A stretch of DNA of 25,490 bases, taken from the UHGV virus genome UHGV-1755679; one strand, written 5' to 3'. Every line of letters begins with the position of its first letter. Within the stretch, counting starts at the first letter, position 1. Made by a program: the position numbers and the translations under genes. The notes below the pieces were generated by a model, which searched no databases, was not told the origin of the DNA, and saw only the letters and a list, made by a program, of their open reading frames with translations. The DNA comes from a virus. Shown one piece after another: positions 11,988-18,105 of the stretch.

Positions 11988-12159
11988 GTATTTTTAAGTC
12001 ACGAATGCTATCTTTTCGCATCATATTGACCTTTTAATCGTTCAGGCTTATAGTTCCGCCGTCGTAGCAAATTCTGCGACCGGGTTTAGCAGCCTGAATG
12101 ATTGTGCGGACAGCCGCAGATATCCGATATTGCGGTATTTTTGTGTCCGTAAAACCGCG

Positions 12160-12240
12160 TTACGCCCAAATTATGGTGGGGCGTGATGGGGAGGCTTCGG
12201 CCTGCTGGTTTCACAATCGCCAGTCTGCTAACCCCGTCAC
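12160..12240 (+). ncRNA. c4: c4 antisense repressor RNA region (approximate boundaries)
   Basis: Non-coding leader between the C1 operator and icd; contains CACAATC and CTGCTAAC segments complementary to GATTGTG / GTTTAGCAG elements found both upstream (12087-12109) and immediately in front of the icd RBS (12253-12293), plus a GGCTTCGGCC tetraloop hairpin. Boundaries not determinable by eye. Confidence 0.4.
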
Positions 12241-12301
12241 GTCCTGCCACCTGTTTAGCAGCGGGTAGCAGGTTGTTAAACCTGATTGTGAGGCCGTAAC
12301 T

Positions 12302-13726: not shown

Positions 13727-14527
13727 ATGCAACAAACATTCAATGCGGATATGAATATATCAAACCTTCATCAAAATGTCGATCCTTCAACCACTCTGCC
13801 TGTTATTTGTGGTGTTGAAATTACGACCGACCGCGCTGGCCGTTACAACCTTAATGCTCTACACAGAGCGAGCGGACTCGGTGCCCATAAAGCGCCAGCT
13901 CAATGGCTAAGAACGCTGTCAGCCAAACAGCTCATCGAAGAGCTTGAAAAAGAAACTATGCAGAATTGCATAGTTTCGTTCGAAGGCCGTGGCGGCGGCA
14001 CTTTTGCCCATGAATTGCTCGCTGTGGAGTACGCAGGCTGGATTTCTCCCGCGTTTCGGCTGAAGGTAAACCAGACATTTATCGACTATCGAGCCGGAAG
14101 ATTACAACCTGCTATTCCGCAGAGTCTCCCTGAAGCTCTCCGTTTGGCTGCCGACCTGGCAGAGCAAAAGCAACGGCTGGAGCAAAAAATGCTTATGGAT
14201 GCACCTAAAGTCGAATTCGCCGAACGCGTTGCTACCGCCAGCGGGGTTCTAATCGGCAACTATGCCAAAGTGCTCGGTCTGGGCCAAAACTATCTCTTCA
14301 CCTGGTTGCGTGATAACGGAATTCTGATCGCAACCGGTGAACGCAGGAACGTCCCCAAACAAGAATACATATCCCGTGGGTATTTCACCCTTAAAGAAAC
14401 CGTGATCGATACAAGCAATGGAAGCAGGATTTCTTTCACGACTCGTATAACCGGCAAAGGTCAGCAGTGGCTGATGAAGCGATTGCTTGATGCTGGTGTG
14501 CTGGTACCTGTCGCGGCAACGCGCTAA
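13727..14527 (+). CDS. kilA: KilA (266 aa), KilA-N plus KilA-C domains
   Basis: ATG at 13727 with SD GGAG; C-terminal half paralogous to Ant; followed by repL as in P1. Confidence 0.8.
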   Translation: MQQTFNADMNISNLHQNVDPSTTLPVICGVEITTDRAGRYNLNALHRASGLGAHKAPAQWLRTLSAKQLIEELEKETMQNCIVSFEGRGGGTFAHELLAVEYAGWISPAFRLKVNQTFIDYRAGRLQPAIPQSLPEALRLAADLAEQKQRLEQKMLMDAPKVEFAERVATASGVLIGNYAKVLGLGQNYLFTWLRDNGILIATGERRNVPKQEYISRGYFTLKETVIDTSNGSRISFTTRITGKGQQWLMKRLLDAGVLVPVAATR

Positions 14528-14556
14528 CAGACGTAGTAAGAACCACCAGCATTGTA

Positions 14557-15402
14557 ATGCTGGCTAAAGTCACTTTCCTGAGCTGTATAACGATGAGCGA
14601 TTTTACTTTTTCTGGCTATGAATTGGCCTGCTTTGTAACACACTCCGGTCTATCCCGTAGCGCCGGGCATATCCTGTCGCAATGTGCAAATCTAGCGGCA
14701 ACAACCAGTGAATACTTCATTCACAAGCCTCACCGCCTGATCGCGGCAGAAACTGGTTATAGCCAATCAACCGTCGTTCGTGCATTCCGTGAAGCTGTAA
14801 ACAAAGGAATTCTGTCTGTAGAGATTGTTATCGGCGATCACCATGAACGTCGCGCTAACCTGTACCGGTTTACACCATCCTTTTTGGCCTTCGCACAACA
14901 AGCCAAAAATGCGCTGATTGAAAGCAAATTAAAGATCTCTTCAGCGGCAACCAAGGTTAAAGCTGTTCTCGCTAAGACATTGGCTTTATTTAATTTTTTA
15001 TCCACACCCCCATGTCAAAATGATACCCCCTCCCCCTGTCAGGATGACGTGGCAATAAAGAATAAGAAGTCACAAGTTAAAAAAACAAAAAGATCAGTTT
15101 CCGGCGGTGCCGGAACGAGCAGACTCAAAAAATTGACTTCATGGATCGCTGAGGCAAAAGCAAAGGCTGACAATCTGCGGTTATCCAAAAAACGCGCTCA
15201 AAAACATGAGTTCAAGCAGAAAGTAGAGGCGGCAGCGCGGAAATATGCTTACCTGAAGAACAAGCGTTCTCCTGATATTGGCGGGGTATCAAACTTCGAT
15301 AATTTGCCGCATTGCATGACGGTAAACGAAGCTCTTAATGCGATTTTAGCCAAAAATAAAGATAACGAAAAATGGGGTATACCGGCAGGATTCAGGGGGT
15401 GA
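14557..15402 (+). CDS. repL: RepL lytic replication initiator (281 aa); the lytic origin is expected inside this gene
   Basis: ATG at 14557; 281-aa product immediately downstream of kilA under the Op53-controlled promoter, matching the P1 kilA-repL arrangement. No clear SD, so the start is uncertain (alternative ATG at 14593). Confidence 0.7.
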   Translation: MLAKVTFLSCITMSDFTFSGYELACFVTHSGLSRSAGHILSQCANLAATTSEYFIHKPHRLIAAETGYSQSTVVRAFREAVNKGILSVEIVIGDHHERRANLYRFTPSFLAFAQQAKNALIESKLKISSAATKVKAVLAKTLALFNFLSTPPCQNDTPSPCQDDVAIKNKKSQVKKTKRSVSGGAGTSRLKKLTSWIAEAKAKADNLRLSKKRAQKHEFKQKVEAAARKYAYLKNKRSPDIGGVSNFDNLPHCMTVNEALNAILAKNKDNEKWGIPAGFRG

Positions 15403-15452
15403 TAGATTGCTCTAATCTGGAGTCACCTGGCGTTTTCAGTTTGAGGTCGGAG

Positions 15453-15698
15453 ATGCAATCTGATTTTTTACAGTTAGCGATCGCTTTTGCAGGATATGTT
15501 TGTATTGGCTTCTGTGTATACATGATCAGCCGAAAAATGCTTGTCGATATCGACCGCAAAGAACGAGCAGAGGAGATCTTAGTATGGATTTTCTTTGGCG
15601 CGGTCTGGCCATTAGGGATCATGTTTGCTGCAACATTTCTTCTGATGTGGATATTCACCCTTCCAGGTGATTTCTATAGAAAAAAAGCCAGACATTGA
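15453..15698 (+). CDS. Small membrane protein with two predicted TM helices (rlfA position)
   Basis: The track ORF from 15372 starts inside repL; the internal ATG at 15453 with SD GAGG gives an 81-aa product with two hydrophobic segments (LQLAIAFAGYVCIGFCVYMI; ILVWIFFGAVWPLGIMFAATFLLMWIF). Confidence 0.4.
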   Translation: MQSDFLQLAIAFAGYVCIGFCVYMISRKMLVDIDRKERAEEILVWIFFGAVWPLGIMFAATFLLMWIFTLPGDFYRKKARH

Positions 15699-15789
15699 TA
15701 CAATCGTTGCGGGTGCTTGAGGCTATCTGCTTCAGGCATTACCCGAAAAGCAGATAGAAGAAAGCCCCAGATAACATTACGCGTCCTGC

Positions 15790-15860
15790 AAGACGCTTAA
15801 CATTAATCTGAGGCCATATCTATGCTTAGCATACGTAGATTAGCCTCTTACCGACCAAAA
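15790..15860 (-). ncRNA. Possible Sok-like antisense RNA opposite the mok start / hok leader (boundaries approximate)
   Basis: Inferred only from the canonical organisation of hok/sok loci; no promoter or terminator could be assigned by eye. Confidence 0.2.
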
Positions 15861-16028
15861 GGTCAAGGAGAAGCAGGCTATGAAGCAGCAAAAAGCGATG
15901 TTAATCGCTCTGATCGTCATCTGTTTAACCGTCATTGTGACGGCACTGGTAACGAGGAAAGACCTCTGCGAGGTACGAATCCGAACCGGCCAGACGGAGG
16001 TCACTGTCTTCACAGCCTACGAATCTGA
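15822..16028 (+). CDS. mok-like overlapping reading frame (68 aa) that would couple translation to hok
   Basis: ATG at 15822 with SD GAGG; overlaps almost the entire hok frame in a different reading frame, as mok does in hok/sok loci. Confidence 0.45.
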   Translation: MLSIRRLASYRPKGQGEAGYEAAKSDVNRSDRHLFNRHCDGTGNEERPLRGTNPNRPDGGHCLHSLRI

Positions 16029-16035
16029 AAGGTAA
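15880..16035 (+). CDS. hok: Hok/Gef-family type I toxin (51 aa membrane peptide)
   Basis: ATG at 15880 with SD AGGAG; translation MKQQKAMLIALIVICLTVIVTALVTRKDLCEVRIRTGQTEVTVFTAYESER is near-identical in pattern to HokC/Gef-family peptides (single TM helix, conserved RKDLCEV...RTGQTEV...FTAYES). Not in the ORF track because of its size and frame. Confidence 0.85.
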   Translation: MKQQKAMLIALIVICLTVIVTALVTRKDLCEVRIRTGQTEVTVFTAYESER

Positions 16036-16104
16036 GAGACCTGGCGGGGAGAGATCCTCGCCACTCTTCGTGTGTCAGGTATCCTCAATGCACCCTTTCC
16101 TCTC

Positions 16105-16131
16105 CAAATAAAAAAGCTCCCGAAGGAGCTT
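16105..16131 (-). terminator. Intrinsic terminator at the end of the leftward late operon (possibly also bounding the hok transcript)
   Basis: Stem AGCTCC / GGAGCT with CGAA loop followed on the minus strand by TTTTTTATTT; lies 20 bp downstream of the 169-aa ORF stop. Confidence 0.55.
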
Positions 16132-16151
16132 TAAAATACAAGGGATGACTC

Positions 16152-16661
16152 TTAATCCCACTCAATCCAGTTGTAGACGATACGAAGTGACGGGCGCACA
16201 GCGGCAGTCACATCTTCGGTACTAAAGTCGATTGCATCACTGTAGATTTTGCAGTCCAACATTTCAATTGTTGTAGCAGCTTTTGTCACAGCGTTAACCC
16301 CGGAAGATTTGGATTCAGGGGTAGCAGCCATCGTGATATCAACATAGTCCTTCGCCGCAATGCGATCCTTGATGAACTGAAGAATATCGCCTTCGATAGT
16401 CTCCACGCACTGGACCTGGATTTCCCCAGAGTTTCGAATTGGTCCGTGCTGGTTGAACTTCACACCATTCGGACCATAGTCCTCCACATCCTCGCGGGTC
16501 ATTTCAGGAATTTGCGACGTGCGAACCAGTACGCTGATATCTTCATGGCCTGCAAAAGTGAGCTGGAATTCAGAAGATACCAGTCGTTCGCCTTTGGCCG
16601 CGTTGGCAGTATAGCGGCCCTTAATAAATTTACGGTTTCCCTTAGTGTTATTGTGCCCCAT
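16152..16661 (-). CDS. Tail tube / baseplate-tube-like structural protein (169 aa)
   Basis: ATG at 16659-16661 with SD AAAGGA; size and composition resemble contractile-tail tube family proteins; part of the minus-strand late block. P1 equivalent (bplB or pmgF) not resolved. Confidence 0.45.
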   Translation of the reverse strand: MGHNNTKGNRKFIKGRYTANAAKGERLVSSEFQLTFAGHEDISVLVRTSQIPEMTREDVEDYGPNGVKFNQHGPIRNSGEIQVQCVETIEGDILQFIKDRIAAKDYVDITMAATPESKSSGVNAVTKAATTIEMLDCKIYSDAIDFSTEDVTAAVRPSLRIVYNWIEWD

Positions 16662-16672
16662 ATAAAATCCTT

Positions 16673-17254
16673 TTACTGGAACGCCCGAACAATATCGGAG
16701 CTGTTATATATCGAAGAACCGGTCAACTGGAGGTTGACGGTGTTTTTCAGGAAATGCCCATTGCTGTCCCTGGGCGCATCGAGATCGAAACTTATGTCCT
16801 GGATAGCGACATCAATGATGTTGATCCGGCGACCAATGTTTAGCGTCACGCGCTCCGGGATTCGACCACCAATACTGGCATCTTTAAGTTCCGGGCTAAT
16901 CATCGCTGACAATGCGGCGATAGCTCCTGAAACCTCCGTGAATGGGTCAAACAAAGCGATGAAAGTTACTGGCAGCGTGAAAGTCGGCGGTGTTCCCCCT
17001 TCCCAAACCATTAAGCTGTTCCAACGGGCAACCGACGTTGTTTCAGTACCAACCTGCGCAAAACCACTGAAGGCACCAGCAACAGATCCCATGGACATAC
17101 CGGTAAACGGCGCTTCCCAATTCTGGGCCATGTTCATTGCCGCCCCCTGGCTGATATATCCGGTAACCTGGTACTGAGAGTTCGTTAAAGTAACTTTCAG
17201 AAATGGCGATACACCGTCAGCCTGGCTGTAAACCCCATAAGGAATAGGTGCCAT
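16673..17254 (-). CDS. Structural/morphogenetic protein (193 aa), pmgG position
   Basis: ATG at 17252-17254; co-oriented with flanking structural genes; no motif recognised. Confidence 0.4.
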   Translation of the reverse strand: MAPIPYGVYSQADGVSPFLKVTLTNSQYQVTGYISQGAAMNMAQNWEAPFTGMSMGSVAGAFSGFAQVGTETTSVARWNSLMVWEGGTPPTFTLPVTFIALFDPFTEVSGAIAALSAMISPELKDASIGGRIPERVTLNIGRRINIIDVAIQDISFDLDAPRDSNGHFLKNTVNLQLTGSSIYNSSDIVRAFQ

Positions 17255-17289
17255 TCAAGTTAAAGGCCGGAGTTCTCCGGCCTCCTCCT

Positions 17290-18105
17290 TTAGCCAAGGC
17301 GCTTACGGCGCAGTTTCATTGACTTTTTGCGGGCAAGTTTTGCCGCGCCGGTCTGGGCTTTTCGACGCGCTTTTTTCAGCGCCGATTTTTGAGCCGCAGT
17401 CAGACGTTTTTTACGCAGGCGTTTACGGATGAGTTTGATCTCACCGTTACGAACAACCTTCTTAAATGCTTCAGTCAGCATTTCATCAGAAGTGCCAGCA
17501 ACAACAAACGCCGCTTCTAGTTCGTCGCGGTCGTCGCTATCTAAACCAGCGATAGAGGCACCAACATCAGCAGCTGCGTCGTCGTCTTCATCGTCAGCCA
17601 GTGCTTCGATCAGGTCATCATCTACACCGCATGCTGCGAGGAAGTCAGCAACATTTGCCCATGCTTCGTTATAGGCATCGTCCTGTTCTTCTGTAACTTC
17701 GGAGTCGTCGTCATCAGAGATACCAGCGATAGCCTGAACGAAACCATCAAGGGAGTCGAAAGTCAGATCACCGCTATCAGCCCAGGCGAAAACGGCGTCG
17801 GCCGCATCACTCAACGCATTTTGCATAGCACTTCGATTTGCAGCTTCCAGAATCATCTGGTGCGCCTGTTCGACGGTCCATTCTTTACCGTCTTTCCCTT
17901 CCAGGATTTGCTCAGGAGCCTGGGCAGATGGAACGTTATCGTTAGTCTGTGCCGCCGGTTCCGGATTATTATTAATAACCGGATCTGTTGGCGGTTCAGC
18001 GCTTGCTCGGGCAGACTCCATCAGCTGCACAGGATCAGAGTTCAAAGCGAAACGAGACAGTCCATTCCCCAAAAATGCCCCGGATTGAAAAAAGTTTTTG
18101 CTCAT
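17290..18105 (-). CDS. Virion-associated protein (271 aa) with an acidic central region and a strongly basic C-terminal tail, gene 21 position
   Basis: ATG at 18103-18105 with SD AAGGGA; composition: D/E-rich stretches (DDDDSEVTEEQDD, ADDEDDDAAAD) followed by a Lys/Arg-rich C-terminus (KRLRKKRLTAAQKSALKKARRKAQTGAAKLARKKSMKLRRKRLG). Confidence 0.4.
   Translation of the reverse strand: MSKNFFQSGAFLGNGLSRFALNSDPVQLMESARASAEPPTDPVINNNPEPAAQTNDNVPSAQAPEQILEGKDGKEWTVEQAHQMILEAANRSAMQNALSDAADAVFAWADSGDLTFDSLDGFVQAIAGISDDDDSEVTEEQDDAYNEAWANVADFLAACGVDDDLIEALADDEDDDAAADVGASIAGLDSDDRDELEAAFVVAGTSDEMLTEAFKKVVRNGEIKLIRKRLRKKRLTAAQKSALKKARRKAQTGAAKLARKKSMKLRRKRLG

What the first reader, a model, noticed from the sequence alone, without database searches (positions are those of the whole stretch)
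15700..16140. hok/mok-type type I toxin module between repL and the late structural genes
A 51-aa Hok/Gef-family peptide (MKQQKAMLIALIVICLTVIVTALVTRKDLCEVRIRTGQTEVTVFTAYESER) with a good SD, plus an overlapping 68-aa mok-like frame starting upstream, reproduces the organisation of hok/sok post-segregational killing loci. I do not recall a hok locus in the reference P1 map, whose known addiction module is phd-doc, so this looks like an extra or substituted stabilisation module. A Sok-like antisense RNA is expected on the minus strand over the mok start but could not be delimited by eye.
Basis: partly seen in the sequence, partly recalled or inferred. Interest (0 to 1): 0.5.

Follow-up and report, generated by a model that had tools for sequence, protein, structure and literature searches.

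The report
Intact hok/mok/sok toxin–antitoxin locus
This is a complete, textbook hok/mok/sok RNA-regulated toxin–antitoxin module carried by a P1-like phage-plasmid in place of three genes of the laboratory P1 strain; the reading is correct, but the module is common and already annotated in hundreds of such plasmids.

Summary
Window 15880..16035 (+) encodes a 51-aa Hok/Gef toxin (Pfam PF01848, 78.7 bits). An upstream ATG at 15822 opens a 68-aa mok-type leader ORF.

All RNA elements of the plasmid R1 hok/sok paradigm are present, and most are supported by comparison with 20 other loci:
- an extended −10 hok promoter
- tac (15711–15722) paired with fbi (16083–16095)
- ucb sequestering the mok Shine-Dalgarno sequence (SD)
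- the tac/ucb plus SD/dcb "open" alternative
- a ~70-nt Sok antisense RNA (about 15830→15757, minus strand) with a conserved promoter and a hairpin/U-tail terminator

Relative to reference P1, a 693-bp cassette (15417–16109: an 81-aa membrane ORF plus hok/sok) replaces the 1,826-bp rlfA-rlfB-pmgF segment. The closest complete plasmid, pSA186_4, still carries phd-doc, so hok is an extra module and not a substitute for phd-doc.

It is not novel. The cassette occurs in at least 255 PLSDB plasmids, against about 100 with the P1 arrangement, and in 230 complete E. coli genomes. PGAP annotates the gene as hokD, and Venturini et al. 2019 recorded the substitution.

The most likely function is post-segregational killing, which is inferred and not shown.

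Side finding: about 40% of copies of this allele are split by an IS186-family element at one 3'-UTR hairpin. The window's copy is intact.

The parts
15417..16109 (+). 693-bp cassette (81-aa ORF plus hok/mok/sok) that replaces the 1,826-bp rlfA-rlfB-pmgF segment of reference P1
   Evidence: blastn against NC_005856: homology ends at window 15416 and resumes at 16110. Junction sequences are shown.
15453..15698 (+). 81-aa small ORF with two hydrophobic segments and unknown function. It is part of the cassette but not of the hok homology block.
   Evidence: Annotated as a 246-bp hypothetical CDS in pSA186_4. Matches phrog_3772 at 181 bits, function unknown. No significant Pfam or NCBIfam hit. The hydrophobic segments are read from the sequence.
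15677..15704 (+). Predicted hok promoter: -35 TAGAAA, 16-nt spacer, TG-extended -10 TACAAT
   Evidence: Consensus scan, 9 of 12 matches with TG. It lies 6 nt upstream of the conserved GGGUGC 5' end.
15711..16100 (+). hok mRNA body, from the tac 5' end to just past fbi. The transcript probably runs on to the hairpin at 16113-16132.
   Evidence: Homology block with 933W hokW/sokW covers 15699-16095. MFE -165.7 kcal/mol, z = -8.0. 84.7% of cells paired across 21 loci, against 36-44% in slid controls.
15711..15722 (+). tac (translational activator element), GGGUGCUUGAGG
   Evidence: Pairs with fbi in the full-length MFE. U4:A changes to C4:G in 7 loci, with U:G in 2.
15729..15744 (+). Partner of tac in the nascent-transcript (metastable) 5' hairpin
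   Evidence: MFE of the first 50 nt and of the trimmed RNA. The concept is from PMC9841398.
15762..15772 (+). ucb (anti-SD of mok), AAGCCCCAGAU. It pairs with the mok SD region in the closed form and with tac in the open form.
   Evidence: Helices. tac/ucb is pairable in 99.3% of cells across 21 loci.
15757..15830 (-). Predicted Sok antisense RNA (~70-74 nt): a 5' tail over the mok SD and AUG, a long hairpin, and a UUUCUUCU tail. Ends are approximate.
   Evidence: Positional homology to the annotated sokW of 933W. Fold -30.6 kcal/mol, z = -4.7. Six stem pairs carry compensatory changes.
15837..15866 (-). Predicted Sok promoter: -35 TTGACC (15866..15861), 18-nt spacer, -10 TAATCT (15842..15837)
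   Evidence: TTG...TAATCT is conserved across the 21-locus alignment read on the minus strand. The generic scanner did not flag it.
15810..15813 (+). mok Shine-Dalgarno GAGG, 8 nt upstream of the mok ATG
   Evidence: Read from the sequence. Paired to ucb in the closed fold and to dcb in the open fold.
15822..16028 (+). mok leader ORF, 68 aa, +1 frame relative to hok, ending 7 nt before the end of hok
   Evidence: The upstream ATG is conserved in 21/21 loci and its ORF always reaches the hok start, whatever the frame.
15843..15847 (+). dcb core GCCUC (within AGCCUCUUACC), overlapping the Sok promoter. It pairs with the mok SD in the open form.
   Evidence: Pairable in 100% of cells across 21 loci.
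15880..16035 (+). hok toxin gene, 51 aa, with SD AAGGAG at 15865-15870
   Evidence: Pfam PF01848, 78.7 bits. PHROG 251. Annotated hokD in pSA186_4, which is identical over this region.
16018..16021 (+). UACG at the Tyr47 codon: candidate TadA A-to-I editing site (Tyr to Cys)
   Evidence: TACGAA is invariant in 21/21 loci. Position 46 is an editing-coded Cys in HokC/D/E (PMC12214031). Editing here is inferred.
16042..16063 (+). G+C-rich 3'-UTR hairpin, the probable stop for 3' trimming. It contains the IS186-family insertion hotspot at 16047-16057.
   Evidence: 9-bp stem. 85.6% paired with 4 covarying pairs. IS junctions.
16083..16095 (+). fbi (fold-back inhibitory element), CCUCAAUGCACCC
   Evidence: Pairs with tac and covaries with it.
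16113..16132 (.). P1-backbone hairpin terminator downstream of bplB. It probably also ends the hok transcript, although only 3 U follow it on the + strand. It marks the right edge of the cassette.
   Evidence: Terminator scan on the minus strand. Identical in reference P1.

Best explanation
This is an intact hok/mok/sok type I toxin-antitoxin locus of the hokD/hokW (prophage-type) lineage, carried as accessory cargo of a P1-like phage-plasmid. I expect it to work as the plasmid R1 paradigm does.

1. A weak extended -10 promoter makes a stable ~390-425-nt hok mRNA.
2. While nascent, the 5' tac element is held in a local hairpin.
3. When the transcript is complete, tac pairs with the 3' fbi box. 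The mok SD is sequestered by ucb, and the hok start is buried in long-range helices. The RNA can then neither be translated nor bind Sok.
4. Slow 3' trimming back to the G+C hairpin at 16042-16063 removes fbi.
5. tac can then switch to ucb, which exposes the mok SD and AUG. Ribosomes translating mok run into the hok start and allow Hok synthesis.
6. In plasmid-bearing cells the abundant but unstable ~70-nt Sok RNA pairs across the mok SD and AUG and causes duplex cleavage.
7. In cells that lose the plasmid, Sok decays first and the stable mRNA pool yields Hok, a small inner-membrane toxin that kills the cell (post-segregational killing).

This would add a second, mechanistically independent addiction system to phd-doc on a low-copy plasmid prophage.

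Shown here: the ORFs, the family membership, the promoter-like and terminator-like elements, both alternative RNA pairings with their conservation or covariation, and the genomic context.

Inferred from the R1 literature: RNA half-lives, 3' processing, RNase III cleavage, toxicity and the stabilisation phenotype.
For: - Toxin: Pfam HOK_GEF 78.7 bits; PHROG 251.
- Leader RNA: Rfam RF01794, 114.9 bits.
- Homology: 86.5% DNA identity across exactly one mRNA length to 933W hokW/mokW/sokW.
- Closed fold: the full-length MFE closes tac with fbi, z = -8.0.
- tac/fbi across the family: each of 31 sequences (the window, 933W and 29 other loci) has a box complementary to its own 5' end 340-385 nt downstream.
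- Comparative support for the closed fold: 84.7% of cells paired against 36-44% in slid controls; 40 pairs with compensatory changes against 10-25.
- Comparative support for the open fold: 86.4% paired against 33-51%; tac/ucb 99.3%; SD/dcb 100%.
- Energetics: the closed form is favoured by 14.1 kcal/mol in the full-length RNA, and the open form lies within 1.8 kcal/mol once fbi is removed. This matches the model described in PMC9841398.
- Sok: hairpin z = -4.7; conserved promoter.
- mok: the start is conserved, and its ORF always reaches hok.
- Context: phd-doc is retained in the identical-cassette plasmid. The locus is uninterrupted here, unlike the IS-split copies.
Against: - No expression, toxicity or stability data exist for this allele.
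- Its lineage is the chromosomal/prophage hokD/hokW group. Intact chromosomal hokA, hokB and hokC loci were reported not to mediate post-segregational killing or rifampicin activation (cited in 10.1101/2025.08.07.668861).
- tac/ucb and SD/dcb are invariant. They are conserved, but covariation does not prove them.
- Plain MFE of the trimmed RNA prefers the 5' local hairpin to tac/ucb by 1.8 kcal/mol.
- The Sok promoter hexamers are weak by consensus, and the generic scanner missed them.
- 87% of complete E. coli genomes carry hokD-type modules at 80-91% identity. Their Sok RNAs might cross-neutralise this one.
- About 40% of copies in plasmids are IS-split, so the intact module is evidently dispensable.
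- NCBIfam's Hok subfamily model scores below its cutoff (49.5 against 73).
Confidence: 0.8

Rival explanations
1. The locus is intact and regulated as above, but its selected role is defence against other phages (abortive infection or exclusion). An infecting phage that shuts off host transcription stops Sok synthesis, and Hok kills the cell before the invader completes its cycle. This protects the P1-like prophage's clonal hosts.
For: hok genes are about four-fold enriched in prophages, and a role of Hok in phage defence has been reported (10.1101/2025.08.07.668861). The nearest relatives of this allele sit in integrated lambdoid and Stx prophages, where plasmid-loss killing has no meaning. 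From my own knowledge, untested here: R1 hok/sok partially excludes T4 (Pecota and Wood 1996).
Against: The same preprint found no enrichment of hok near defence systems. The element here is a low-copy plasmid, where post-segregational killing is directly useful. The two roles are not mutually exclusive.
Confidence: 0.2
2. The locus is structurally intact but functionally silent. It would be a selfish or hitch-hiking passenger acquired by recombination in a variable region, giving neither killing nor stabilisation in its usual hosts. Possible reasons are cross-neutralisation by chromosomal Sok homologues or an intrinsically weak toxin until RNA editing occurs.
For: Intact chromosomal hokA/B/C loci did not mediate post-segregational killing. 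hokD-type modules are present in 4,739 of 5,426 E. coli genomes. IS-split copies (163 + 35 against 225 intact) and a hok-deleted variant persist in many plasmids. rlfA-rlfB-pmgF is a recognised hypervariable region (PMC9603915). Hok here has Tyr at the position where a second periplasmic Cys is needed for full toxicity in HokB.
Against: All regulatory elements are retained, and the cassette is 99-100% identical across hundreds of plasmids. 42 of 45 diverse Hok coding sequences tested were toxic, including HokD. The Sok 5' tail and mok-start region are the most diverged part of the leader (column identity 0.64-0.69), which would limit cross-talk.
Confidence: 0.2
3. The ORFs are chance open frames in non-coding spacer DNA, and there is no toxin-antitoxin module.
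For: None beyond the small size of the ORFs.
Against: Profile hits far above threshold, structure z-scores and covariation across 21 loci from six or more genera.
Confidence: 0.01

Closest known systems
hokW/mokW/sokW of Stx phage 933W and related lambdoid prophage loci (Rac hok; PGAP 'hokD')
   Same: 86.5-91% DNA identity over the whole ~397-nt module. Same order of promoter, tac, ucb, sok, mok start, dcb, hok, GC hairpin and fbi. The Hok proteins are nearly identical. The annotated sokW maps onto the Sok predicted here.
   Different: Here the carrier is a P1-like plasmid prophage, not an integrated lambdoid prophage. A 1-nt indel in the dcb/Sok-promoter hairpin puts mok in the +1 frame (68 aa), whereas mokW is an in-frame N-terminal extension of Hok (70 aa). 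The Sok 5' tail and mok start region differ at several positions.
hok/mok/sok (parB) of plasmid R1, the experimentally defined paradigm
   Same: All named regulatory elements can be identified with the pairings described for R1: tac/fbi, ucb/mok-SD, tac/ucb, SD/dcb, the metastable 5' hairpin, the out-of-frame mok leader, and Sok antisense to the mok SD and AUG with its promoter overlapping dcb. Both sit on a low-copy plasmid.
   Different: The lineage is different and the sequence much more distant: R1-type loci were not retrieved by megablast. Processing, RNA half-lives and the killing phenotype are demonstrated for R1 and only inferred here.
E. coli K-12 hokD (relF) and the IS-inactivated chromosomal hokA/hokC/hokE
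   Same: PGAP names this gene hokD. The IS186-family insertions just 3' of hok in many plasmid copies mirror the insertion-element inactivation reported for K-12 hokA/C/E (PMC12214031).
   Different: K-12-type hokD matches only window 15866-16095 and lacks the leader, mok and sok parts (the rows that cover query 450-679). The window's locus is complete and carries no IS.
phd-doc of P1, the known P1 addiction module
   Same: Both are toxin-antitoxin modules on the same kind of plasmid prophage, expected to penalise plasmid loss. Both are present in the closest complete relative.
   Different: phd-doc is a type II system: a protein antitoxin and the Doc toxin, which acts on translation. It sits at a distant locus and is unrelated in sequence and mechanism. 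hok/sok is a type I system: an antisense RNA antitoxin and a membrane toxin.

Membership tests
Hok/Gef toxin family (Pfam PF01848) | Profile match above the curated gathering score over the full domain | tested here: met
   78.7 bits against a cutoff of 22, E 2.4e-22, model positions 1-42 of 42. PHROG 251, 110.7 bits.
Hok/Gef toxin family (Pfam PF01848) | ~50-aa peptide with an N-terminal transmembrane helix, a conserved membrane Cys and a periplasmic Cys | tested here: met
   51 aa. Hydrophobic stretch at residues 7-24. Cys15 and Cys30 (the DLCEV motif) are conserved in nearly all of the 21 aligned homologues.
NCBIfam Hok subfamily NF007279 / HokA equivalog NF007290 | Score at or above the curated cutoff | tested here: not met
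   49.5 bits against 73, and 38.1 against 89. PGAP nevertheless names the identical protein HokD, presumably by another rule.
hok/sok-type type I toxin-antitoxin locus (R1 paradigm) | Leader ORF (mok) starting upstream, whose translation reaches the hok start | tested here: met
   ATG at 15822 with SD GAGG; 68-aa ORF overlapping hok. A homologous ATG is present in 21/21 loci, and its ORF always reaches hok, in frame 0, +1 or +2.
hok/sok-type type I toxin-antitoxin locus (R1 paradigm) | cis-encoded antisense RNA (Sok) covering the mok translation initiation region, with its own promoter and terminator | tested here: inconclusive
   Predicted only. The promoter TTGACC-18-TAATCT is conserved. The hairpin plus U-rich tail folds with z = -4.7. 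The position matches the annotated sokW. No transcript data exist, and the generic promoter scan did not flag it.
hok/sok-type type I toxin-antitoxin locus (R1 paradigm) | 5'-3' end pairing (tac/fbi) that locks the full-length mRNA | tested here: met
   12 bp in the MFE. Present in all 31 sequences examined. 88% paired with U:A, U:G and C:G covariation.
hok/sok-type type I toxin-antitoxin locus (R1 paradigm) | mok SD sequestered by ucb in the closed form; alternative tac/ucb and SD/dcb stems in the trimmed form | tested here: met
   Closed form. Open form is the MFE of the 5' 160 nt and lies within 1.8 kcal/mol of the MFE of the trimmed RNA. 99-100% pairable across 21 loci but invariant, so this is conservation, not covariation.
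hok/sok-type type I toxin-antitoxin locus (R1 paradigm) | Metastable 5' hairpin in the nascent transcript | tested here: met
   The MFE of the first 50 nt pairs tac with 15729-15744. This is a thermodynamic prediction only.
hok/sok-type type I toxin-antitoxin locus (R1 paradigm) | Match to the Rfam hok/sok leader model RF01794 | tested here: met
   114.9 bits against 59, full model 1-157, on the + strand.
hok/sok-type type I toxin-antitoxin locus (R1 paradigm) | Stable mRNA with slow 3' processing, unstable Sok and RNase III cleavage of the duplex | not testable with these tools
   Needs northern blots, RNA-seq and half-life measurements.
hok/sok-type type I toxin-antitoxin locus (R1 paradigm) | Post-segregational killing or plasmid stabilisation phenotype | not testable with these tools
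   Needs plasmid-loss and rifampicin assays. Related chromosomal loci were reported negative.
Reference bacteriophage P1 gene set (NC_005856) | The same segment present between repL and bplB | tested here: not met
   P1 has rlfA-rlfB-pmgF there. Homology breaks at window 15416 and 16110. The only match in NC_005856 is the two flanking pieces. Absence of any distant Hok gene elsewhere in P1 was not tested.

The most novel reading that the evidence does not exclude
The G+C hairpin in the hok 3' UTR (16042-16063) is a recurrent IS186-family insertion hotspot. It has been hit independently in both orientations and in about 40% of P1-like plasmid copies. These insertions may be selected knock-outs, or heritable switches, of an addiction module that is costly to the phage-plasmid or its host. 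That would be the same process that silenced hokA/C/E on the K-12 chromosome. A more speculative addition: because the cassette abuts the C1-controlled kilA-repL operon and truncates the Orlf operator, read-through on induction might couple Hok expression to the lytic switch.
Probability: 0.15. Interest if true: 0.4.

Novelty: already known. Interest (0 to 1): 0.15.

Why it matters
The finding itself matters little. It shows that the laboratory P1 reference is not representative of natural P1-like phage-plasmids at the repL-bplB interval. Most natural elements carry a second addiction module, RNA-regulated and membrane-targeting, besides phd-doc. That bears on why these elements, which often carry resistance genes, persist in E. 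coli populations. The intact copy delimited here, with all RNA elements mapped, is a convenient template for testing whether prophage-type hokD/hokW loci can mediate post-segregational killing. That question is open, because related chromosomal loci tested negative.

Tried and rejected
1. I first labelled AGCCUCUUACC (15843-15853) as ucb and GGUAAGAG (16031-16038) as dcb, from memory. PMC9841398 showed this was wrong. ucb is the upstream anti-SD (15762-15772), and AGCCUC is dcb. The 15845-15852:16031-16038 helix is predicted and 87% pairable, but it is mostly invariant and is not one of the named R1 elements. I leave it unnamed.

2. Plain MFE folding of the 3'-trimmed RNA (ends at 16066, 16070 and 16076) did not give tac/ucb. 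Only a constrained comparison showed the open form to be nearly isoenergetic. I do not claim that thermodynamics alone demonstrates the switch.

3. My first mok scan excluded in-frame ORFs and wrongly suggested that mok is absent from most homologues. One search corrected this.

4. The literature searches for hok in P1-like elements found no paper that names a hok/sok locus in P1-like plasmids. Venturini 2019 says only 'antibacterial toxin'.

5. The P1 genome paper (PMC523184) is not held, so I could not confirm from the literature that hok is absent from all of P1.

6. Pfam and NCBIfam gave nothing significant for the 68-aa Mok frame or the 81-aa ORF.

7. pSA186_4 is not the source of the window. 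It is identical only over 14400-17300 and 98-99.5% identical elsewhere.

8. Protein database searches, structure prediction and fold searches were not used. The family assignment was already unambiguous.
Full report
**Observation**

The quoted 51-aa ORF is at 15880..16035 on the + strand, preceded by AAGGAG at 15865-15870. The overlapping 68-aa frame is at 15822..16028.

- The ORF matches Pfam HOK_GEF end to end: 78.7 bits, cutoff 22, E 2.4e-22.
- It matches PHROG 251 'MokW-like host killing' at 110.7 bits.
- NCBIfam's narrower Hok models score below their cutoffs, 49.5 against 73.
- Rfam RF01794 ('sok') matches 15711..15885 at 114.9 bits, gathering score 59.

The Rfam match is on the + strand. 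It begins with GGGUGCUUGAGG (the hok mRNA 5' end) and ends on the hok AUG. As applied here, the model therefore describes the sense-strand hok leader and not the antisense RNA. The real Sok is its complement.

**Relation to reference P1**

Homology to NC_005856 runs to window 15416 and resumes at 16110. Between these points P1 has 1,826 bp carrying rlfA, rlfB and pmgF. The window has 693 bp carrying an 81-aa ORF (15453..15698; phrog_3772, function unknown) and the hok module.

- The left breakpoint falls after the first 11 nt of P1's C1 operator Orlf/Op55: ATTGCTCTAAT|CTGGAG against ATTGCTCTAATTATAAC.
- The right breakpoint is exactly at the shared hairpin terminator AAAAAAGCTCCCGAAGGAGC.

The hok homology block proper is 15699-16095. 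It is 86.5% identical to hokW/mokW/sokW of Stx phage 933W and up to 91% identical to a Rac-prophage hok. That is one full mRNA length.

**Extra module, not a substitute for phd-doc**

The stretch 14400-17300 is 100% identical to plasmid pSA186_4 (NZ_CP022733.1). That plasmid encodes both hokD and the Phd/Doc pair at 56,801-57,402. The rest of the window is only 98-99.5% identical to that plasmid, so it is a close relative and not the source. The cassette replaces rlfA-rlfB-pmgF, not phd-doc.

**Anatomy, + strand**

A promoter-like site lies at 15677-15704 (TAGAAA, 16-nt spacer, TACAAT with an upstream TG), 6 nt before the conserved GGGUGC start at 15711.

The full-length RNA folds at -165.7 kcal/mol, z = -8.0. 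Its first 12 nt (tac, 15711-15722) pair with CCUCAAUGCACCC (fbi, 16083-16095). In that closed fold:
- the mok SD (GAGG, 15810-15813) is paired with an upstream box (ucb, 15762-15772);
- the mok AUG is paired with 16077-16082;
- the hok start region is paired with 16004-16018.

I had the ucb and dcb names wrong from memory. PMC9841398 corrected them: closed form = tac/fbi plus SD/ucb; trimmed form = tac/ucb plus SD/dcb; dcb overlaps the Sok promoter; and a metastable 5' hairpin forms in the nascent RNA. All of these can be found here.

- The first 50 nt fold into a tac hairpin with 15729-15744.
- The first 160 nt fold into tac/ucb plus SD (15810-15814)/dcb (15843-15847).
- In the full-length RNA the closed form beats the open form by 14.1 kcal/mol (-154.7 against -140.6).
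- After removal of fbi (RNA ending at 16066) the open form is only 1.8 kcal/mol above the optimum (-130.7 against -132.5).

The energetics are consistent with the switch. They do not prove it: the plain MFE of the trimmed RNA keeps the 5' hairpin.

**Anatomy, minus strand**

By position, 933W's annotated sokW maps to about 15830..15761. The reverse complement of 15756-15831 folds into a long hairpin followed by UUUCUUCU (-30.6 kcal/mol, z = -4.7). Its 5' tail is complementary to the mok SD and AUG.

Upstream on the minus strand lie TTGACC (15866..15861), an 18-nt spacer and TAATCT (15842..15837). TTG...TAATCT is conserved across the family. The generic scanner did not report it. Sok is therefore a well-supported prediction and not an observation.

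**Comparative test**

A genome scan with the Hok peptide returned 47 loci. In each of 31 sequences examined (the window, 933W and 29 of these loci), the 5' 14 nt find a complementary box 340-385 nt downstream. I aligned 21 distinct loci from Escherichia, Kluyvera, Citrobacter, Photorhabdus, Pantoea, Erwinia, Kalamiella, phage 933W and the window (alignment A1).

On the closed structure:
- 84.7% of cells are paired, against 36-44% when the partners are slid.
- 40 pairs show compensatory changes, against 10-25.
- The covariation score is 0.173, against 0.05-0.085.
- tac position 4 pairs as U:A in 12 loci, C:G in 7 and U:G in 2.

On the open structure:
- 86.4% of cells are paired, against 33-51%.
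- The tac/ucb stem is 99.3% pairable and SD/dcb 100%, but both are invariant.
- The only variable base in the ucb-pairing part of tac (positions 1-8), position 4, is bulged in tac/ucb. This reconciles both pairings.
- The Sok/target hairpin has six covarying pairs.

**mok**

A homologous upstream ATG exists in all 21 loci, and its ORF always reaches the hok start, but the frame varies. It is in frame in 14 loci (an extended Hok, as annotated for mokW), +1 in 3 (the window, 68 aa) and +2 in 4 (a 19-codon ORF stopping over the hok AUG). The conserved feature is ribosome delivery to the hok start, not a Mok protein. This agrees with the absence of any family hit for the 68-aa frame.

**How common it is**

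- PLSDB plasmids: the 693-bp cassette is covered at 80% or more in 255 plasmids, with 606 showing any match. The P1-type rlfA-rlfB-pmgF segment is in 99-101.
- Complete E. coli genomes: 230 of 5,426 hold the cassette. 4,739 hold a hokD-type module at 80-91% identity, with a median of 2 places per genome.
- Phage records: several, including three labelled P1, carry it. One annotates 'MokW'.
- PGAP calls the gene hokD.
- Venturini et al. [quoted passage not shown]
- PMC9603915 lists rlfA-rlfB-pmgF as a hypervariable region.
- A 2025-26 preprint catalogues Hok in thousands of plasmids and prophages and reports enrichment in prophages and large plasmids. It does not mention phage-plasmids.

The module is therefore already known and annotated.

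**Function**

The best-supported mechanism is the R1 one, summarised, giving post-segregational killing on a low-copy plasmid prophage that already has phd-doc. This is inference. The same preprint recalls that intact chromosomal hokA/B/C loci failed to mediate post-segregational killing, and this allele belongs to the prophage/chromosomal lineage. Phage exclusion and functional silence remain live rivals.

**Side observations**

- In NZ_CP062902.1 a 1,338-bp IS4-family (IS186/IS421-type) element sits at window 16047-16057, inside the 3'-UTR G+C hairpin. That is 12-22 nt after the hok stop and before fbi.
- Venturini et al. report IS186B at the same site, with direct repeat GGATCTCTCC.
- In PLSDB the intact 3' UTR occurs in 225 plasmids and the hok::IS junction in 163. 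The opposite-orientation junction occurs in up to 35, six of them shown at 100% coverage. This is a recurrent hotspot that affects about 40% of copies.
- It parallels the insertion-element inactivation reported for K-12 hokA/C/E. The window's copy is uninterrupted.
- Another variant (NZ_CP076303.1) keeps the cassette up to 15845 but replaces hok with a 198-aa minus-strand gene.
- The Tyr47 codon sits in CUACGAA, and TACGAA is invariant in 21/21 loci. This corresponds to the position where HokC/D/E acquire a Cys by TadA A-to-I editing.

**Verdict**

Both the observation and the interpretation are correct. The module is canonical, intact and ordinary. Novelty: already known. Interest is low.

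Noticed in passing
window 16042-16063 (hotspot 16047-16057); L004 1959-3296: The G+C hairpin in the hok 3' UTR is a recurrent insertion site for a 1,338-bp IS186/IS421-family element. In PLSDB, 225 plasmids have the intact site, 163 have the IS in one orientation and up to 35 in the other. The insertion separates fbi from the rest of the mRNA, as reported for K-12 hokA/C/E. The window's copy is intact.
   Followed up: yes
window 15417-16109 versus L002 1518-3343: The reference-P1 arrangement (rlfA-rlfB-pmgF) is the minority allele among sequenced P1-like plasmids: about 100 against at least 255 with the hok cassette. Further alleles exist at the same site, carrying ParA/DUF3892 or Lom-like outer-membrane protein genes.
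   Followed up: partly
L007 (NZ_CP076303.1) 1501-2700; window 15417-15845: A variant cassette keeps the 81-aa ORF, the hok promoter, the leader and the sok body up to window 15845. It replaces the hok ORF and the Sok -35 with a 198-aa minus-strand gene (phrog_7522, unknown function). It is a hok-deleted remnant found in many plasmids and in phage vB_EcoM-673R5.
   Followed up: partly
window 15406-15422: The left junction of the cassette lies inside P1's C1 operator Orlf/Op55. The window keeps ATTGCTCTAAT and then diverges (CTGGAG against TATAAC in P1). Whether C1 still binds, and whether the 81-aa ORF and hok are reached by read-through from the C1-controlled kilA-repL operon, is unknown. Only a weak terminator-like hairpin (15655-15670) intervenes.
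   Followed up: no
window 16018-16023: The Tyr47 codon of hok lies in CUACGAA. By my recollection this matches the tRNA-Arg(ACG) anticodon-loop motif that TadA uses. TACGAA is invariant in all 21 aligned loci, including the synonymous third position. Position 46 is an editing-coded Cys in HokC/D/E (PMC12214031). This is a likely Tyr-to-Cys recoding site.
   Followed up: partly
window 15822 and alignment A1 column 117: The mok start is conserved in 21/21 loci, but its frame relative to hok is 0, +1 or +2, set by 1-nt indels in the dcb/Sok-promoter hairpin. Only translation into the hok start is conserved. In 933W 'MokW' is an in-frame extended Hok. In the window it is out of frame.
   Followed up: yes
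window 15711-15885 (+): Rfam RF01794, named 'sok antitoxin', matches the sense strand. Its consensus starts with the tac sequence and ends on the hok AUG. As applied here it models the hok mRNA leader and reports the wrong strand for Sok.
   Followed up: partly
window 15811-15840: The Sok 5' tail and mok-start region is the least conserved part of the leader (column identity 0.64-0.69), while the adjacent tac, ucb and dcb bins have column identities of 0.90-0.94. Because 87% of E. coli genomes carry hokD-type loci, this divergence could be what limits Sok cross-talk.
   Followed up: no
window 15453-15698: An 81-aa ORF with two hydrophobic segments (phrog_3772, unknown function) travels with hok in the cassette. 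Some plasmids and phage RCS47 share only the part from window 15583 onward.
   Followed up: partly
window 12048-12100 and 12169-12254: Rfam finds the P1 immI elements: the C4 antisense RNA (69.6 bits) and its a1/b1 target (55.5 bits). These are expected for a P1-like element.
   Followed up: no
window 67-1103: This stretch matches several paralogous segments (84-98% identity) within a cluster of tail-fibre and 'phage tail protein' genes of pSA186_4, next to a recombinase gene. It looks like a multi-cassette invertible tail-fibre region rather than P1's simple C-segment.
   Followed up: no
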